This document shows positions 8,759 to 12,637 of a stretch of DNA of 13,368 nt, piece by piece (the stretch's first letter is position 1; every line of letters starts with the position of its first letter). The notes beneath the pieces were generated by a model, which saw only the letters and a program-made list of their open reading frames with translations, was not told the DNA's origin and did not search any database. The DNA is from a virus (Duplodnaviria; Heunggongvirae; Uroviricota; Caudoviricetes). A program made the position numbers and the translations under genes. Where the stretch lies: the IMG/VR virus record IMGVR_UViG_3300029846_000275. One strand, 5' to 3'.

Positions 8759-8878
8759 TTAATATTTGACTGTTTTAGCTTCCAGTTGCCGTAACGTCTC
8801 ACGACCACTCTGGCGCACGAGTTCCACCACCTGCCCTTTAATTTTTTCCCGCTCTTCTTGTGTAAAAACTTTTGCCAC
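8759..8878 (-). CDS. Hypothetical small protein (39 aa), GTG start
   Basis: Strong SD (AAGGGGGA) 4-5 nt before GTG at 8878; product VAKVFTQEEREKIKGQVVELVRQSGRETLRQLEAKTVKY; lies 40 nt downstream of the rep stop. Confidence 0.3.
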   Translation of the reverse strand: MAKVFTQEEREKIKGQVVELVRQSGRETLRQLEAKTVKY

Positions 8879-10677: not shown

Positions 10678-11085
10678 ATGGATACAAGAACCCTAGGCCA
10701 GCGAGTTCTGGCGCGACGAAAAGAATTACGCTTAACACAACGAGAAGCTGCGCGCCTCGCTGGAGTTGCTCACGTCACAATTTCACAATGGGAAAGAGAC
10801 GAAACCCAGCCAGTCGGAAAACGATTGTTTGCTTTAGCGGATGCTCTGAAGTGCTCACCTACATGGCTAATGTTTGGTGACGAAGACAAGGCACCAGTGC
10901 CTGCACAAGAACTTCATGTGGAAACAGAGCTAACTCCCAACCACAAAGAATTGATCGAATTATTCGATGCTCTTCCATCTTCCGAGCAGGAAGCCTTGCT
11001 GTCTGAAATGCGCGCAAGAGTAGAAAACTTCAACAAACTCTTCGAAGAAATGCTTAAAGCGCGTAAAAATAAATCAATAAAATAA
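10678..11085 (+). CDS. dicA: DicA-family XRE/CI-type repressor (135 aa)
   Basis: 135 aa with N-terminal HTH (LTQREAARLAGVAHVTISQWERDETQP) and the motifs CSPTW and EMRARVxNFNKLFEE that I recall from DicA; no SD before the ATG (possibly leaderless). Confidence 0.8.
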   Translation: MDTRTLGQRVLARRKELRLTQREAARLAGVAHVTISQWERDETQPVGKRLFALADALKCSPTWLMFGDEDKAPVPAQELHVETELTPNHKELIELFDALPSSEQEALLSEMRARVENFNKLFEEMLKARKNKSIK

Positions 11086-11121
11086 CATTCTTTTCAAGTG
11101 ATTAGTTGCGCCCACTCTTTT

Positions 11122-11139
11122 TGTTAGACCAATCTAACA
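11122..11139. promoter_or_regulatory. Candidate operator in the dicB-operon promoter region: TGTTAGA-N4-TCTAACA
   Basis: TGTTAGACCAATCTAACA, a perfect 7-bp inverted repeat identical in half-sites to the one at 10611..10628. Confidence 0.6.
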
Positions 11140-11157
11140 AAAAACACTTGCCTCTCA

Positions 11158-11174
11158 TGTTAGGTTATTCTAAA
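11158..11174. promoter_or_regulatory. Third, imperfect operator-like site (TGTTAGG-N4-TCTAAAT)
   Basis: About 36 bp downstream of the operator at 11122; left half-site conserved, right half-site degenerate. Confidence 0.35.
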
Positions 11175-11253
11175 TTACTTTCCATCAAGACACCGCACGG
11201 TGTTCTCAGCAAGCAGTTCCGCTACCCCGGCGTTAAGGGGAAATGAGGTCAGC

Positions 11254-11406
11254 ATGGATACTATCGATCTTGGCAACAGCGAATCTCTGGTATGTGGCGT
11301 GTTCCCCAACCAGGACGGTACGTTCACCGCGATGACATATACCAAAAGCAAAACGTTTAAAACCGAATCTGGCGCGCGTTGCTGGTTAGCCAGAAACACT
11401 GACTGA
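11254..11406 (+). CDS. ydfA: Small protein (50 aa), YdfA-like; first gene of the dicB operon
   Basis: ATG at 11254 with GAGG 5 nt upstream; stop overlaps the next start (TGATG); position matches ydfA of the K-12 dicB operon by synteny. Confidence 0.55.
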   Translation: MDTIDLGNSESLVCGVFPNQDGTFTAMTYTKSKTFKTESGARCWLARNTD

Positions 11407-11417
11407 TGAGGCTGACG

Positions 11418-11783
11418 ATGGAATTTAAAGATTTACCGTCTGATGTACAGAAAACAGCAGCTCATACATTGCATTCTGTGCTGCGAGAAATCGGGAAAGA
11501 TATTGCAAGCGAGCCAGCAAAAGATCTGGCCCGGAAAATCAAGACCGCTTTCGTTGAGCTTTATAATGTTGGCACTGACTCTGAAACTGTCGAGACCAAG
11601 ACCGTAAGTTCACCAATATTCTCACTTGAGCCAGGCGTATTATCAGGTGAAATATGCACCGAGATTTCCAGCGAACTGCTTCCGGTAATACGAGAAGCAA
11701 TTTGCCGTCGCGGTTTGGATGGAAGTTACGATCATGACGTCCTGCAAGTTCTCAGGACAATGGTGACTTCACTGGGGATTTGA
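11418..11783 (+). CDS. Hypothetical protein (121 aa) in the position of ydfB/ydfC of the dicB operon
   Basis: ATG at 11418 with GAGG 7 nt upstream (the ORF track begins at ATG 11406); same strand as ydfA and dicB. Confidence 0.55.
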   Translation: MEFKDLPSDVQKTAAHTLHSVLREIGKDIASEPAKDLARKIKTAFVELYNVGTDSETVETKTVSSPIFSLEPGVLSGEICTEISSELLPVIREAICRRGLDGSYDHDVLQVLRTMVTSLGI

Positions 11784-11952
11784 TCCCTGCGTCCTCTAAC
11801 CTTTTGATATAGCGGTCCTCCAAGAAGCGGTAAATTTTGTCGAAATCATCTTTCCCCTCTGGTTTATTCAGAGGATTACAGGACCCGTAAGTAGCGGCAT
11901 ACATTTCAACCGTTTTATCAAAAATATAAGAGACAAATTCTTCTTTAGTCAT
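11752..11952 (-). CDS. Candidate antisense-oriented small protein (66 aa) inside the dicB operon
   Basis: ATG at 11952 with AAGGAA 8 nt upstream; product MTKEEFVSYIFDKTVEMYAATYGSCNPLNKPEGKDDFDKIYRFLEDRYIKRLEDAGIK... is non-repetitive; 3' end overlaps the 121-aa ORF by about 30 nt. Confidence 0.35.
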   Translation of the reverse strand: MTKEEFVSYIFDKTVEMYAATYGSCNPLNKPEGKDDFDKIYRFLEDRYIKRLEDAGIKSPVKSPLS

Positions 11953-12227
11953 ATAGATTTCCTTCTTGGTTATTCGGGATAAGAAGGATACCACCTCGCC
12001 TGACGTGGTTAAAAGCAGGCACACAACACGAAAGCGCACGGCGAAGTTCGTCTCACTGTACGGTGTCGTTAAATTTAATTCGACCGTGCGCTTCCGGTTG
12101 TGGCAACCCGCGAAATGGCGCGGCGGTAAGTATGGCGGGGTTATTCCTTCCCCGTTGAGGACACCGAGTTGTCAGGTTGACCATACGCTTAAGTGACAAC
12201 CCCGCTGCAACGCCCTCTGTTATCAAT

Positions 12228-12280
12228 TTTCTGGTGACGTTTGGCGGTATCAGTTTTACTCCGTGACTGCTCTGCCGCCG
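12228..12280 (+). ncRNA. dicF: DicF small regulatory RNA (~53 nt)
   Basis: TTTCTGGTGACGTTTGGCGGTATCAGTTTTACTCCGTGACTGCTCTGCCGCC followed by a T-run matches my recollection of DicF; lies between the ydfA-C region and dicB as expected. Confidence 0.85.
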
Positions 12281-12448
12281 TTTTTAAAGTGAATTTTGTG
12301 ATGCGGTGAATGCGGCTAAGCGCACGCGGAACAGTTAAAACCAGTGTTATGGGTGGATTCTCTGTATCCGGCGTTAATTGTTAACTGGTTAACGTCACCT
12401 GGAGGCACCAGGCACTGCATCACAAAATTCATTGTTGAGGACGCGATA

Positions 12449-12637
12449 ATGAAAACGTTATTACCAAACGTTAATACGTCTGAAGGTTGTTTTGAAATTG
12501 GTGTCACTATCAGTAACCCTGTATTTACTGAAGATGCCATTAACAAGAGAAAACAAGAACGGGAGCTATTAAATAAAATATGCATTATTTCAATGCTGGC
12601 TCGTTTACGTCTGATGCCAAAAGGATGTGCACAATGA
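12449..12637 (+). CDS. dicB: Cell-division inhibitor DicB (62 aa)
   Basis: Product MKTLLPNVNTSEGCFEIGVTISNPVFTEDAINKRKQERELLNKICIISMLARLRLMPKGCAQ; GAGGA about 8 nt upstream; the ORF track extends it to an upstream start at 12344. Confidence 0.9.
   Translation: MKTLLPNVNTSEGCFEIGVTISNPVFTEDAINKRKQERELLNKICIISMLARLRLMPKGCAQ

What the first reader, a model, noticed from the sequence alone, without database searches (positions are those of the whole stretch)
11752..11952. Antisense-oriented 66-aa ORF with a strong RBS inside the dicB operon
A well-formed ORF (AAGGAA SD, ATG start, non-repetitive product) lies on the strand opposite the dicB operon, between the 121-aa ORF and dicF, and overlaps the 3' end of the 121-aa ORF. 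It is either an unrecognised gene whose transcription would interfere with read-through into dicF and dicB, or a chance ORF; I do not recognise the protein.
Basis: seen in the sequence. Interest (0 to 1): 0.45.

Follow-up and report, generated by a model that had tools for sequence, protein, structure and literature searches.

The report
Real prophage gene in sieB slot
The antisense 66-codon frame is a genuine, conserved prophage gene of unknown function, sitting where phages lambda and P22 keep their sieB exclusion gene and preceded by the same conserved DNA that forms part of the antisense RNA sas in P22.

Summary
The ORF (11752-11952, minus strand) is exactly as described. It is a real gene. 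Homologues down to 29% identity keep a full-length frame, and dN/dS is 0.08-0.33, including the codons that no other gene overlaps. RefSeq already annotates it as a hypothetical protein (WP_000159335.1) and PHROGs holds it as phrog_34441, so it is uncharacterised rather than unrecognised. AlphaFold gives a soluble two-helix hairpin with no informative structural match.

Two things are new. First, in 12 lineages examined it is paired tail-to-tail, with a 27-56 nt overlap in 11 of them, with a gene of the early-left operon that carries one conserved C-terminal domain. Second, about 40 nt upstream lies a roughly 35-nt element that is 32/35 identical to the 3' part of phage P22's antisense RNA sas. 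The same element precedes sieB in lambda and P22, ymfI in K-12 prophage e14, and about 15 other unrelated ORF families (12 of 63-163 aa).

The gene is therefore one alternative cargo of the lambdoid sieB slot. It is probably expressed from the repressed prophage and silenced by a sas-like antisense RNA when the dicB operon is switched on. That mechanism and the protein's role are inferred, not shown.

The parts
11752..11952 (-). 66-aa gene (the finding). A soluble, predicted two-helix hairpin protein of family phrog_34441 / WP_000159335.1.
   Evidence: establish the ORF, its annotation and its homologues. dN/dS is 0.08-0.33. AlphaFold2 gives pLDDT 81.5 with helices at residues 3-22 and 31-54. 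GRAVY is -0.68 and no stretch looks like a transmembrane segment.
11959..11964 (-). Shine-Dalgarno sequence AAGGAA, five bases before the ATG.
   Evidence: Read directly from the sequence.
11960..11988 (.). Inverted repeat TCCTTCTT / AAGAAGGA. One arm covers the Shine-Dalgarno sequence and the other covers the candidate -10 region. It forms a stem-loop on either strand.
   Evidence: All 26 distinct leaders have such a hairpin. Duplex energy between a leader's own arms averages -8.65 kcal/mol, against -6.23 for arms taken from different leaders, and 0 of 5000 permutations reached the observed mean. Pair counts show changes on both sides at 4 pairs. Folding energy shows no strand preference.
11985..11993 (-). 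Candidate extended -10 promoter element TGGTATCCT for the 66-aa gene. The predicted start of transcription is near 11978. This is a prediction only.
   Evidence: TGnTAnnCT is kept at a fixed distance of about 40 nt from the ATG in every leader, including Morganella L080 and Cedecea L005, which lack the core element. The promoter scan did not report it.
11990..12023 (+). Conserved core ACCACCTCGCCTGACGTGGTTAAAAGCAGGCACA, homologous to the 3' part of the P22 antisense RNA sas. It contains the CCAC/GTGG and GCCTG/CAGGC stems.
   Evidence: 32 of 35 positions match the P22 sas read cluster published in PMC13397905. Nearly every position is the same in the window, P22, lambda, e14 and an SfII-like prophage. 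It is present in 152 phage records and in at least 120 IMG/VR contigs.
11418..11783 (+). Convergent partner gene of the dicB operon (121 aa from 11418, or 125 aa from 11406). It has a variable N-terminal domain and a conserved C-terminal helical hairpin of about 45 aa that always accompanies the 66-aa gene family.
   Evidence: Searches show the domain structure and its linkage to the 66-aa gene. It matches phrog_33007. AlphaFold2 gives only pLDDT 59, with helices at 8-28, 32-49, 77-97 and 102-118.
11386..12010 (.). Mosaic module (partner gene, 66-aa gene and leader) that stands where K-12 Qin has ydfB-ydfC.
   Evidence: A blastn comparison of the window with MG1655 Qin shows homology at 11005-11385 and again from 12011.
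12229..12280 (+). dicF, the downstream small-RNA gene of the operon. Given for context.
   Evidence: Rfam RF00039, 72.5 bits.

Best explanation
The ORF is a genuine accessory gene of a Qin-like lambdoid prophage. It occupies the position that sieB holds in lambda and P22: inside the early-left operon (here dicBp-ydfA-121aa-dicF-dicB), on the opposite strand, and tail-to-tail with a promoter-proximal operon gene.

Shown here:
- The protein is under purifying selection.
- Its upstream region carries the same conserved element that lies upstream of sieB in lambda and P22 and that forms the 3' part of the P22 antisense RNA sas.
- The same element precedes many unrelated small genes, so this is a cargo slot with a shared control region.
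- The 66-aa gene family always travels with one particular C-terminal domain encoded on the operon strand.

Inferred:
- In the repressed prophage the gene is transcribed from its own promoter. The candidate is the extended -10 TGGTATCCT, which would give a leader of about 26 nt.
- When DicA repression is lifted, operon-strand RNA covering 11950-12023 acts as the antisense. This RNA would be a sas-like species with two stem-loops, or the long transcript itself. It pairs with the Shine-Dalgarno and start region and shuts off translation, as sas does to sieB in P22.
- The soluble two-helix protein most likely acts by binding another protein. The best candidate is the helical-hairpin C-domain of its convergent partner.
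For: Gene reality:
- dN/dS is 0.08-0.33 in all divergent pairs, including codons 1-55, which no other gene overlaps. Fisher p ranges from 2e-3 to 4e-10.
- Full-length homologues occur in E. coli, Shigella, Cedecea, Klebsiella, Edwardsiella, Providencia, Morganella and Atlantibacter.
- Three deposited phage genomes carry a family member: mEp460_ev081, SfII and EPP-1. mEp460_ev081 is described as a functional temperate phage in PMC10448788.

Position:
- In each of the 10 fetched loci the gene lies antisense within the early-left operon. A CI- or DicA-like repressor gene is 0.1-0.8 kb beyond the partner.
- In Cedecea it lies antisense between cro and a cII-like gene.
- Lambda sieB (34482-35036, plus strand) abuts the end of N. 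P22 sieB converges on gene 24.

Control element:
- The window core at 11990-12023 is 32/35 identical to the sas read cluster of P22 (PMC13397905).
- It aligns with the regions upstream of P22 sieB, lambda sieB and e14 ymfI.
- P22 sas is a cis-antisense RNA that switches sieB translation (PMC12197685, PMC7067206, both citing Ranade and Poteete 1993).
- The stem-loop next to the core is kept by covariation in 26 of 26 leaders.

Cargo slot: about 15 further unrelated ORF families, 12 of them 63-163 aa, follow the element at 37-42 nt.

Partner linkage: 12 lineages examined carry the same partner C-domain, joined to three kinds of N-terminal region, one of them no N-domain at all.

Analogous locus: in K-12 e14, ymfJ is strongly induced late in the SOS response (log2 4-4.8), while ymfI changes much less (PMC11002266).
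Against: - No transcript, start site, ribosome footprint or protein was seen here. The promoter is a prediction, and the scan tool did not call it.
- In P22 and lambda the mapped or annotated sieB promoter lies between the core and the ATG, a gap of about 73 nt. Here the gap is only about 43 nt, so the promoter must sit differently.
- The stem-loop folds equally well on both strands, so the strand on which it acts is not settled.
- The protein has no similarity to SieB or to any Pfam, NCBIfam, PADLOC, PDB or BFVD entry.
- Among the near-identical E. coli copies, the single-variant full-length sequences are 9 non-synonymous and 1 synonymous. Several copies are cut by IS elements. Constraint may therefore be relaxed in cryptic prophages.
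- No terminator was found downstream.
Confidence: 0.6

Rival explanations
1. The gene and its partner form an exclusion and self-immunity pair, following the logic of SieB and Esc. The prophage-expressed 66-aa protein harms incoming phages. The partner C-domain, made early from the operon strand by a phage of the same type, neutralises it. This refines the best explanation rather than contradicting it.
For: The gene sits in the same slot and behind the same control element as sieB. The cargo is always inherited together with one partner domain that is encoded in the lytic operon. Both are predicted helical hairpins and could pack together.
Against: There is no homology to SieB or Esc and no match to any defence model. 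The protein is soluble, whereas SieB is described, from general knowledge, as a membrane protein. No interaction or phenotype data exist. The physical overlap alone could account for the two genes being inherited together.
Confidence: 0.2
2. The gene acts mainly as a transcriptional roadblock. Convergent transcription from its promoter lowers read-through from dicBp into dicF and dicB, and the protein is secondary.
For: The gene converges on the operon inside it and no terminator lies between them. In Cedecea the cassette sits between cro and a cII-like gene, another early operon.
Against: Purifying selection acts on the amino-acid sequence. The slot accepts many unrelated proteins, which suggests that the cargo is what matters. 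In the P22 precedent the regulation runs from the operon strand onto the gene (PMC12197685).
Confidence: 0.1
3. The gene and its partner are a toxin-antitoxin-like addiction pair. One protein is toxic and the other neutralises it, and the overlap of the 3' ends adds antisense control.
For: Two small genes are strictly co-inherited and their 3' ends overlap in 11 of 12 lineages.
Against: The genes are not an operon but converge. No toxin, antitoxin or DNA-binding domain was found in Pfam, NCBIfam or PADLOC. Neither protein is a hydrophobic type I toxin. IS-disrupted copies of the 66-aa gene survive in genomes.
Confidence: 0.07
4. It is a chance ORF with no product.
For: The window holds 60 ORFs of at least 60 aa. 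Recent polymorphisms in E. coli are mostly non-synonymous.
Against: dN/dS is 0.08-0.33 with significant Fisher tests. The frame is kept down to 29% identity across eight genera. The Shine-Dalgarno sequence and start codon keep a conserved spacing.
Confidence: 0.02

Closest known systems
Phage P22 sieB / esc / sas (Ranade and Poteete 1993, as summarised in PMC12197685 and PMC7067206; sas reads in PMC13397905) and lambda sieB
   Same: In both cases the gene lies on the strand opposite the early-left operon and tail-to-tail with a promoter-proximal operon gene. The conserved core sequence upstream of the start codon is the same, with 32 of 35 positions matching sas. A covarying stem-loop sits next to the core.
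   Different: The protein is unrelated: 66 aa and soluble, against 192 aa for P22 SieB, with no alignment. There is no conserved internal start like esc. The core lies about 43 nt from the ATG instead of about 73 nt, so the promoter must be placed differently. The 3' ends overlap a partner gene by 32 nt, whereas sieB only abuts N or lies close to gene 24. No expression data exist for this locus.
E. coli K-12 prophage e14 ymfI / ymfJ / ymfK
   Same: The same core element (1 mismatch in 22) lies about 40 nt upstream of ymfI. ymfI is antisense to the early-left operon and overlaps the 3' end of ymfJ by 63 nt. The CI-like repressor gene ymfK lies next to ymfJ.
   Different: YmfI and YmfJ show no convincing similarity to the 66-aa protein (22% identity, poorly aligned) or, by inspection only, to its partner. 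Both are also uncharacterised.
K-12 Qin ydfB-ydfC
   Same: They occupy the same place in the dicB operon, between ydfA and the structured region upstream of dicF.
   Different: They are unrelated sequences, both on the operon strand. K-12 keeps only the outer edge of the core element, from 12011 onward, and has no antisense gene.
Lambdoid 'morons' such as lambda bor and lom (general knowledge)
   Same: It is a small accessory gene set between or against lytic genes and probably expressed from the prophage. The core element with a cargo gene also occurs next to lysis and terminase regions (L196 and L098).
   Different: No terminator was found, and G+C content is not distinct. The shared, conserved control element is not part of the moron definition.

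Membership tests
phrog_34441 / RefSeq WP_000159335.1 family (function unknown) | Full-length match to the family profile. | tested here: met
   E-value 1.5e-50 over residues 1-66 of 66. The same CDS is annotated in BL21(DE3).
sieB-slot gene under sas-type antisense control (P22/lambda) | Lies antisense inside the early-left operon, converging on a promoter-proximal operon gene near the immunity region. | tested here: met
   compared with lambda and P22.
sieB-slot gene under sas-type antisense control (P22/lambda) | Conserved sas core sequence upstream of the start codon. | tested here: met
   32 of 35 positions match P22 sas. The alignment with P22, lambda and e14 is, and the lambda match is.
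sieB-slot gene under sas-type antisense control (P22/lambda) | Own promoter that is active in the lysogen. | not testable with these tools
   Only a candidate TGGTATCCT at 11985-11993 is available. It was not reported by the scan. The P22 promoter and start site are annotated at a different spacing.
sieB-slot gene under sas-type antisense control (P22/lambda) | An antisense RNA is made from the operon strand and blocks translation. | not testable with these tools
   No RNA data are available for this locus. The plus strand 11937-12040 folds into stem-loops like sas.
SieB protein family | Sequence similarity to SieB, a protein of about 190 aa with an internal Esc start. | tested here: not met
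   No BLASTP alignment with E <= 100 to P22 SieB. The protein is hydrophilic, with a maximum Kyte-Doolittle value of 0.31. The internal Met17 is not conserved.
Type II toxin-antitoxin | Two-gene operon with a recognisable toxin or antitoxin domain. | tested here: not met
   The genes converge. No hits in Pfam, NCBIfam or PADLOC.
Type I toxin-antitoxin (hok/sok-like) | Small hydrophobic membrane toxin. | tested here: not met
   GRAVY is -0.68 and there is no hydrophobic stretch.
Moron (independent transcription unit in a prophage) | Own promoter and own terminator. | tested here: inconclusive
   There is a candidate promoter only. No intrinsic terminator lies in 11300-12500.
HK022 put antitermination RNA | Sequence and structure similar to putL or putR just downstream of the early promoters. 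| tested here: not met
   The core has no match, even with up to 3 mismatches, in HK022 22000-31000. No Rfam hit other than DicF. The two stems are much shorter than those described for put in PMC9378689.

The most novel reading that the evidence does not exclude
The sas/sieB upstream element is a portable control module that marks a hypervariable slot for accessory genes expressed in the lysogen, across lambdoid prophages of Enterobacterales. In the IMG/VR loci fetched, about 17 ORF families follow the element, including the two branches of the 66-aa family. Lambda and P22 sieB and K-12 ymfI are further cargoes. Within that slot, the 66-aa protein and the C-domain of its convergent partner would form a new two-protein exclusion and self-immunity pair: the effector is made by the prophage, and its antidote is made early by the same phage type.
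Probability: 0.2. Interest if true: 0.7.

Novelty: new variant of a known kind. Interest (0 to 1): 0.5.

Why it matters
The gene itself is a small unknown. Its setting, however, links an uncharacterised family to one of the few phage antisense-RNA switches that have been studied experimentally. It also shows that the conserved sas core can serve as a sequence tag for finding small prophage genes that are probably expressed in lysogens, which is where exclusion and defence functions usually sit. These include ymfI in K-12, and all the cargo families searched lack an assigned function. The gene is carried by the standard laboratory strains of the E. coli B lineage (BL21, REL606), so tests are easy to run. 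It also means that in those strains the dicF-dicB transcript has to pass through a convergent gene that K-12 lacks.

Tried and rejected
- Searches against Pfam, NCBIfam, PADLOC and PDB sequences gave no usable hit for the 66-aa protein or its partner.
- Foldseek searches of the model against PDB and BFVD gave no match below E = 0.89, as expected for a helical hairpin.
- The exhaustive profile search of 1.84 billion representative proteins found only 10 proteins at E <= 1e-10.
- The partner alone modelled poorly (pLDDT 59), so no fold search was run on it.
- The idea that the two adjacent stem-loops are a put-like antitermination RNA was dropped.
- Reading the inverted repeat as a DNA operator was rejected, because the loop length varies from about 6 to 17 nt between lineages.
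- Reading it as an integron attC-like site was rejected: it overlaps the ribosome-binding site rather than following the ORF, and no integron integrase is nearby.
- The test for which strand the hairpin acts on, by folding energy, was inconclusive.
- YmfI and YmfJ were compared with the 66-aa protein and its partner. YmfI aligned poorly with the 66-aa family (22% identity), and YmfJ was compared with the partner only by inspection; neither looked related.
- Literature searches for the protein accession, for SfII orf36 and for an antisense gene in the dicB operon found nothing on this gene.

Full report
**Observation.** The minus-strand ORF is exactly where the finding places it. The ATG is at 11952-11950 and the TGA at 11754-11752, giving 66 codons. 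AAGGAA lies at 11964-11959. The ORF overlaps the last 32 nt of the plus-strand 121/125-aa ORF (11418 or 11406 to 11783). It lies 277 nt from dicF, which Rfam places at 12229-12280 with 72.5 bits. The window is a Qin-like prophage. Its 11400-12450 segment is 99.4% identical to the E. coli B lineage. Length alone means little, because the window holds 60 ORFs of at least 60 aa.

**Is it a gene?** Yes.
- PGAP annotates the same CDS in BL21(DE3) as hypothetical protein WP_000159335.1.
- It is annotated in phage mEp460_ev081, which PMC10448788 describes as a functional temperate phage.
- It matches phrog_34441 over its whole length, with E = 1.5e-50.
- 388 of 5426 complete E. coli genomes carry it almost unchanged.
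- Protein searches found full-length relatives at 89, 88, 73, 57 and 54% identity. A profile search added Morganella, Providencia, Atlantibacter and Klebsiella. A branch at 29-33% identity occurs in Shigella phage SfII (SfII_36), and a 40%-identical relative of that branch occurs in Edwardsiella phage EPP-1.
- Nei-Gojobori dN/dS is 0.08-0.33 for every divergent pair. That includes codons 1-55, which no other ORF overlaps.
- Synonymous sites are hit far more often than non-synonymous ones, with Fisher p from 2e-3 to 4e-10. Of 107 variable alignment columns, 51 are third codon positions.
- One caveat applies. Among the near-identical E. coli copies, the single-variant full-length sequences are 9 non-synonymous and 1 synonymous. 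Some copies are cut by IS1 or other insertions. Constraint may be relaxed in cryptic prophages.

**The protein.** AlphaFold2 on a six-sequence alignment gives a helical hairpin, with helices at 3-22 and 31-54 and pLDDT 81.5. The protein is acidic (pI 5.3) and hydrophilic, with no transmembrane stretch. Pfam, NCBIfam, PADLOC, PDB sequences, and Foldseek against PDB and BFVD gave nothing usable. A profile search of 1.84 billion representative proteins found only 10 at E <= 1e-10.

**A conserved convergent partner.** In 12 lineages examined, a gene on the opposite strand runs into the 3' end of the 66-aa gene family. The overlap is 27-56 nt in 11 of them.
- The partner has two parts. Its N-terminal region varies: one kind in the window, another in L003, L004 and EPP-1, and none in SfII, Klebsiella and Morganella.
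- Its C-terminal domain of about 45 aa is conserved (ISSELLPVIREAI.RRGLDG.YDHDVLQVLRTMVTSLGI in the window) and is always present.
- In Cedecea the pair sits between cro and a cII-like gene instead of after the repressor. It is again antisense to an early operon, and the partner there is reduced to the C-domain.
- The partner model is weak (pLDDT 59). It suggests two helical hairpins joined by a disordered linker.
- Modelling the complex was not possible.

**Relation to K-12.** Window 11386-12010 (partner, 66-aa gene and leader) stands where K-12 Qin has ydfB-ydfC. Homology resumes at 12011.

**The upstream element.** Alignment of the leaders showed a block about 40 nt upstream of the ATG that is better conserved than the protein: GCCTG(T)CTTTT(A/C)ACCACnTCAGGCnnGGTGG. 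It is followed by TAT(C/T)CTT and an inverted repeat whose second arm covers the Shine-Dalgarno sequence.
- In those contigs the core is followed at 37-42 nt by the start codon of the 66-aa family or of about 15 other unrelated ORF families, 12 of them 63-163 aa. They include zinc-ribbon proteins, a probable membrane protein and several 147-aa proteins.
- The ten cargo families searched have no assigned function.
- The inverted repeat is present in all 26 distinct leaders. Each 5' arm pairs better with its own 3' arm than with the arms of other leaders: -8.65 against -6.23 kcal/mol, with 0 of 5000 permutations reaching the observed mean. It folds equally well on both strands.
- Most of the other cargo genes inspected also have a convergent gene overlapping their 3' end and a CI-like repressor gene beyond it. 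A few lie next to lysis or terminase genes instead.

**What the element is.**
- The core matches K-12 e14 with 1 mismatch in 22, at L076 439-460. That is about 40 nt upstream of ymfI, which overlaps the 3' end of ymfJ next to the repressor gene ymfK.
- It also occurs in 152 phage records.
- In lambda it lies at about 34403-34431, just upstream of sieB. sieB (34482-35036) is the plus-strand gene set against the pL operon, and it abuts the end of N.
- In P22 it lies upstream of the annotated sieB promoter and RNA start.
- The P22 antisense RNA sas, as sequenced in PMC13397905, contains the core. Window 11990-12023 is 32/35 identical to sas positions 79-113. Nearly every core position is the same in the window, P22, lambda, e14 and the SfII-like prophage.
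- Reviews describe sas as a cis-antisense RNA of about 105 nt. It pairs with sieB mRNA and switches translation between SieB and Esc (PMC12197685, PMC7067206, both citing Ranade and Poteete 1993).
- Both P22 sas and the window's plus strand fold into a stem-loop next to the GCCUG/CAGGC hairpin.

**Explanation.** The 66-aa gene is an alternative cargo of the lambdoid sieB slot and shares its control region. I infer three things:
1. It is expressed from the repressed prophage.
2. Its promoter is the extended -10-like TGGTATCCT at 11993-11985. That motif is the only one kept at a fixed distance from the ATG in all leaders, even those without the core.
3. When the dicB operon is derepressed, operon-strand RNA across 11950-12023 silences its translation, as sas silences sieB.

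This reading also explains why the stem-loop covaries although half of it would lie in the promoter of the minus-strand gene: the hairpin would belong to the plus-strand RNA. Weak support comes from e14, where ymfJ is induced 16- to 28-fold late in the SOS response and ymfI much less (PMC11002266).

None of this was measured for the window's locus. The spacing between core and ATG (43 nt, against 73 nt in P22) shows that the promoter arrangement is not identical.

**Protein function.** The function remains unknown. The protein is not SieB and not a recognisable toxin, antitoxin or defence protein. The strict linkage to one partner domain encoded in the lytic operon suggests that the two proteins interact. 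It allows an exclusion and self-immunity reading on the SieB/Esc pattern, to which I give about 0.2.

It is possible but untested, and the protein-level selection speaks against it being the gene's main role.

**Verdict.** The gene is real but already annotated as hypothetical. It is a new variant of a known arrangement (a sieB-slot gene with a sas-type element), with an unrelated cargo protein and a conserved convergent partner. Interest is moderate. It rests mainly on the wider pattern of a shared control element in front of many unknown small prophage genes.

Noticed in passing
window 11990-12023; loci L087-L205 (IMG/VR); L076 439-460; L206 1903-1932; L207 2654-2686: The core element upstream of the 66-aa gene precedes about 15 other unrelated ORF families (12 of 63-163 aa; the ten searched have no assigned function). 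It also precedes lambda and P22 sieB and K-12 e14 ymfI. It looks like a shared control module for a variable gene slot.
   Followed up: partly
L196 and L098 (IMG/VR contigs): The same core with a cargo gene also occurs away from the immunity region, next to lysis genes and HNH/terminase genes. That is another classic site for accessory genes.
   Followed up: no
L073 2656-2862 (E. coli YPE10) and L084 3154-3360 (phage SfII): The 68-aa convergent partner gene is not annotated in these records, although it is conserved and matches phrog_15476. PGAP and the SfII authors called only the antisense 63-aa gene.
   Followed up: partly
window 12030-12041 and 12084-12095: A 12-nt inverted repeat (GAAAGCGCACGG / CCGTGCGCTTCC) lies upstream of dicF. 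The 5' end expected for the 190-nt DicF species that RNase III produces in K-12 (PMC10448788) would fall at about 12091, inside the second arm. A similarly placed repeat with a different sequence occurs in L008.
   Followed up: partly
L005 3568-3897 (Cedecea): Here the cassette lies between cro and a cII-like gene. The partner has lost its usual stop codon, giving a 109-aa ORF that reads antisense through the whole 66-aa gene.
   Followed up: partly
window 11905-11952 (codons 1-16): The first 16 residues (MTKEEFVSYIFDKTVE) are almost unchanged down to 54% overall identity, and few nucleotides change. This could reflect an extra constraint from an element on the opposite strand. No convincing promoter was found there.
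   Followed up: no
L069, L070, L071; proteins P0009, P0010, P0015, P0016: Several E. coli copies of the gene are truncated by IS1 or by other insertions after codon 16-45. Single-variant sequences among intact copies are mostly non-synonymous (9 to 1).
   Followed up: partly
window 3340-3538 (minus strand): A full-length Rfam match to IS009 (RF02111, 226.8 bits) lies elsewhere in the window.
   Followed up: no
window 1-8770 versus the rest: No complete E. coli genome in the collection holds the whole window as one place. The first 8770 nt are 100% identical to two genomes (ydfJ, pinQ and tail genes). The immunity and dicB part matches other strains best, so the prophage is a mosaic.
   Followed up: no
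L077-L079 3714-3899 (Providencia): A CsrA-family gene (PF02599) lies immediately upstream of the family member in Providencia prophages, on the operon strand.
   Followed up: no
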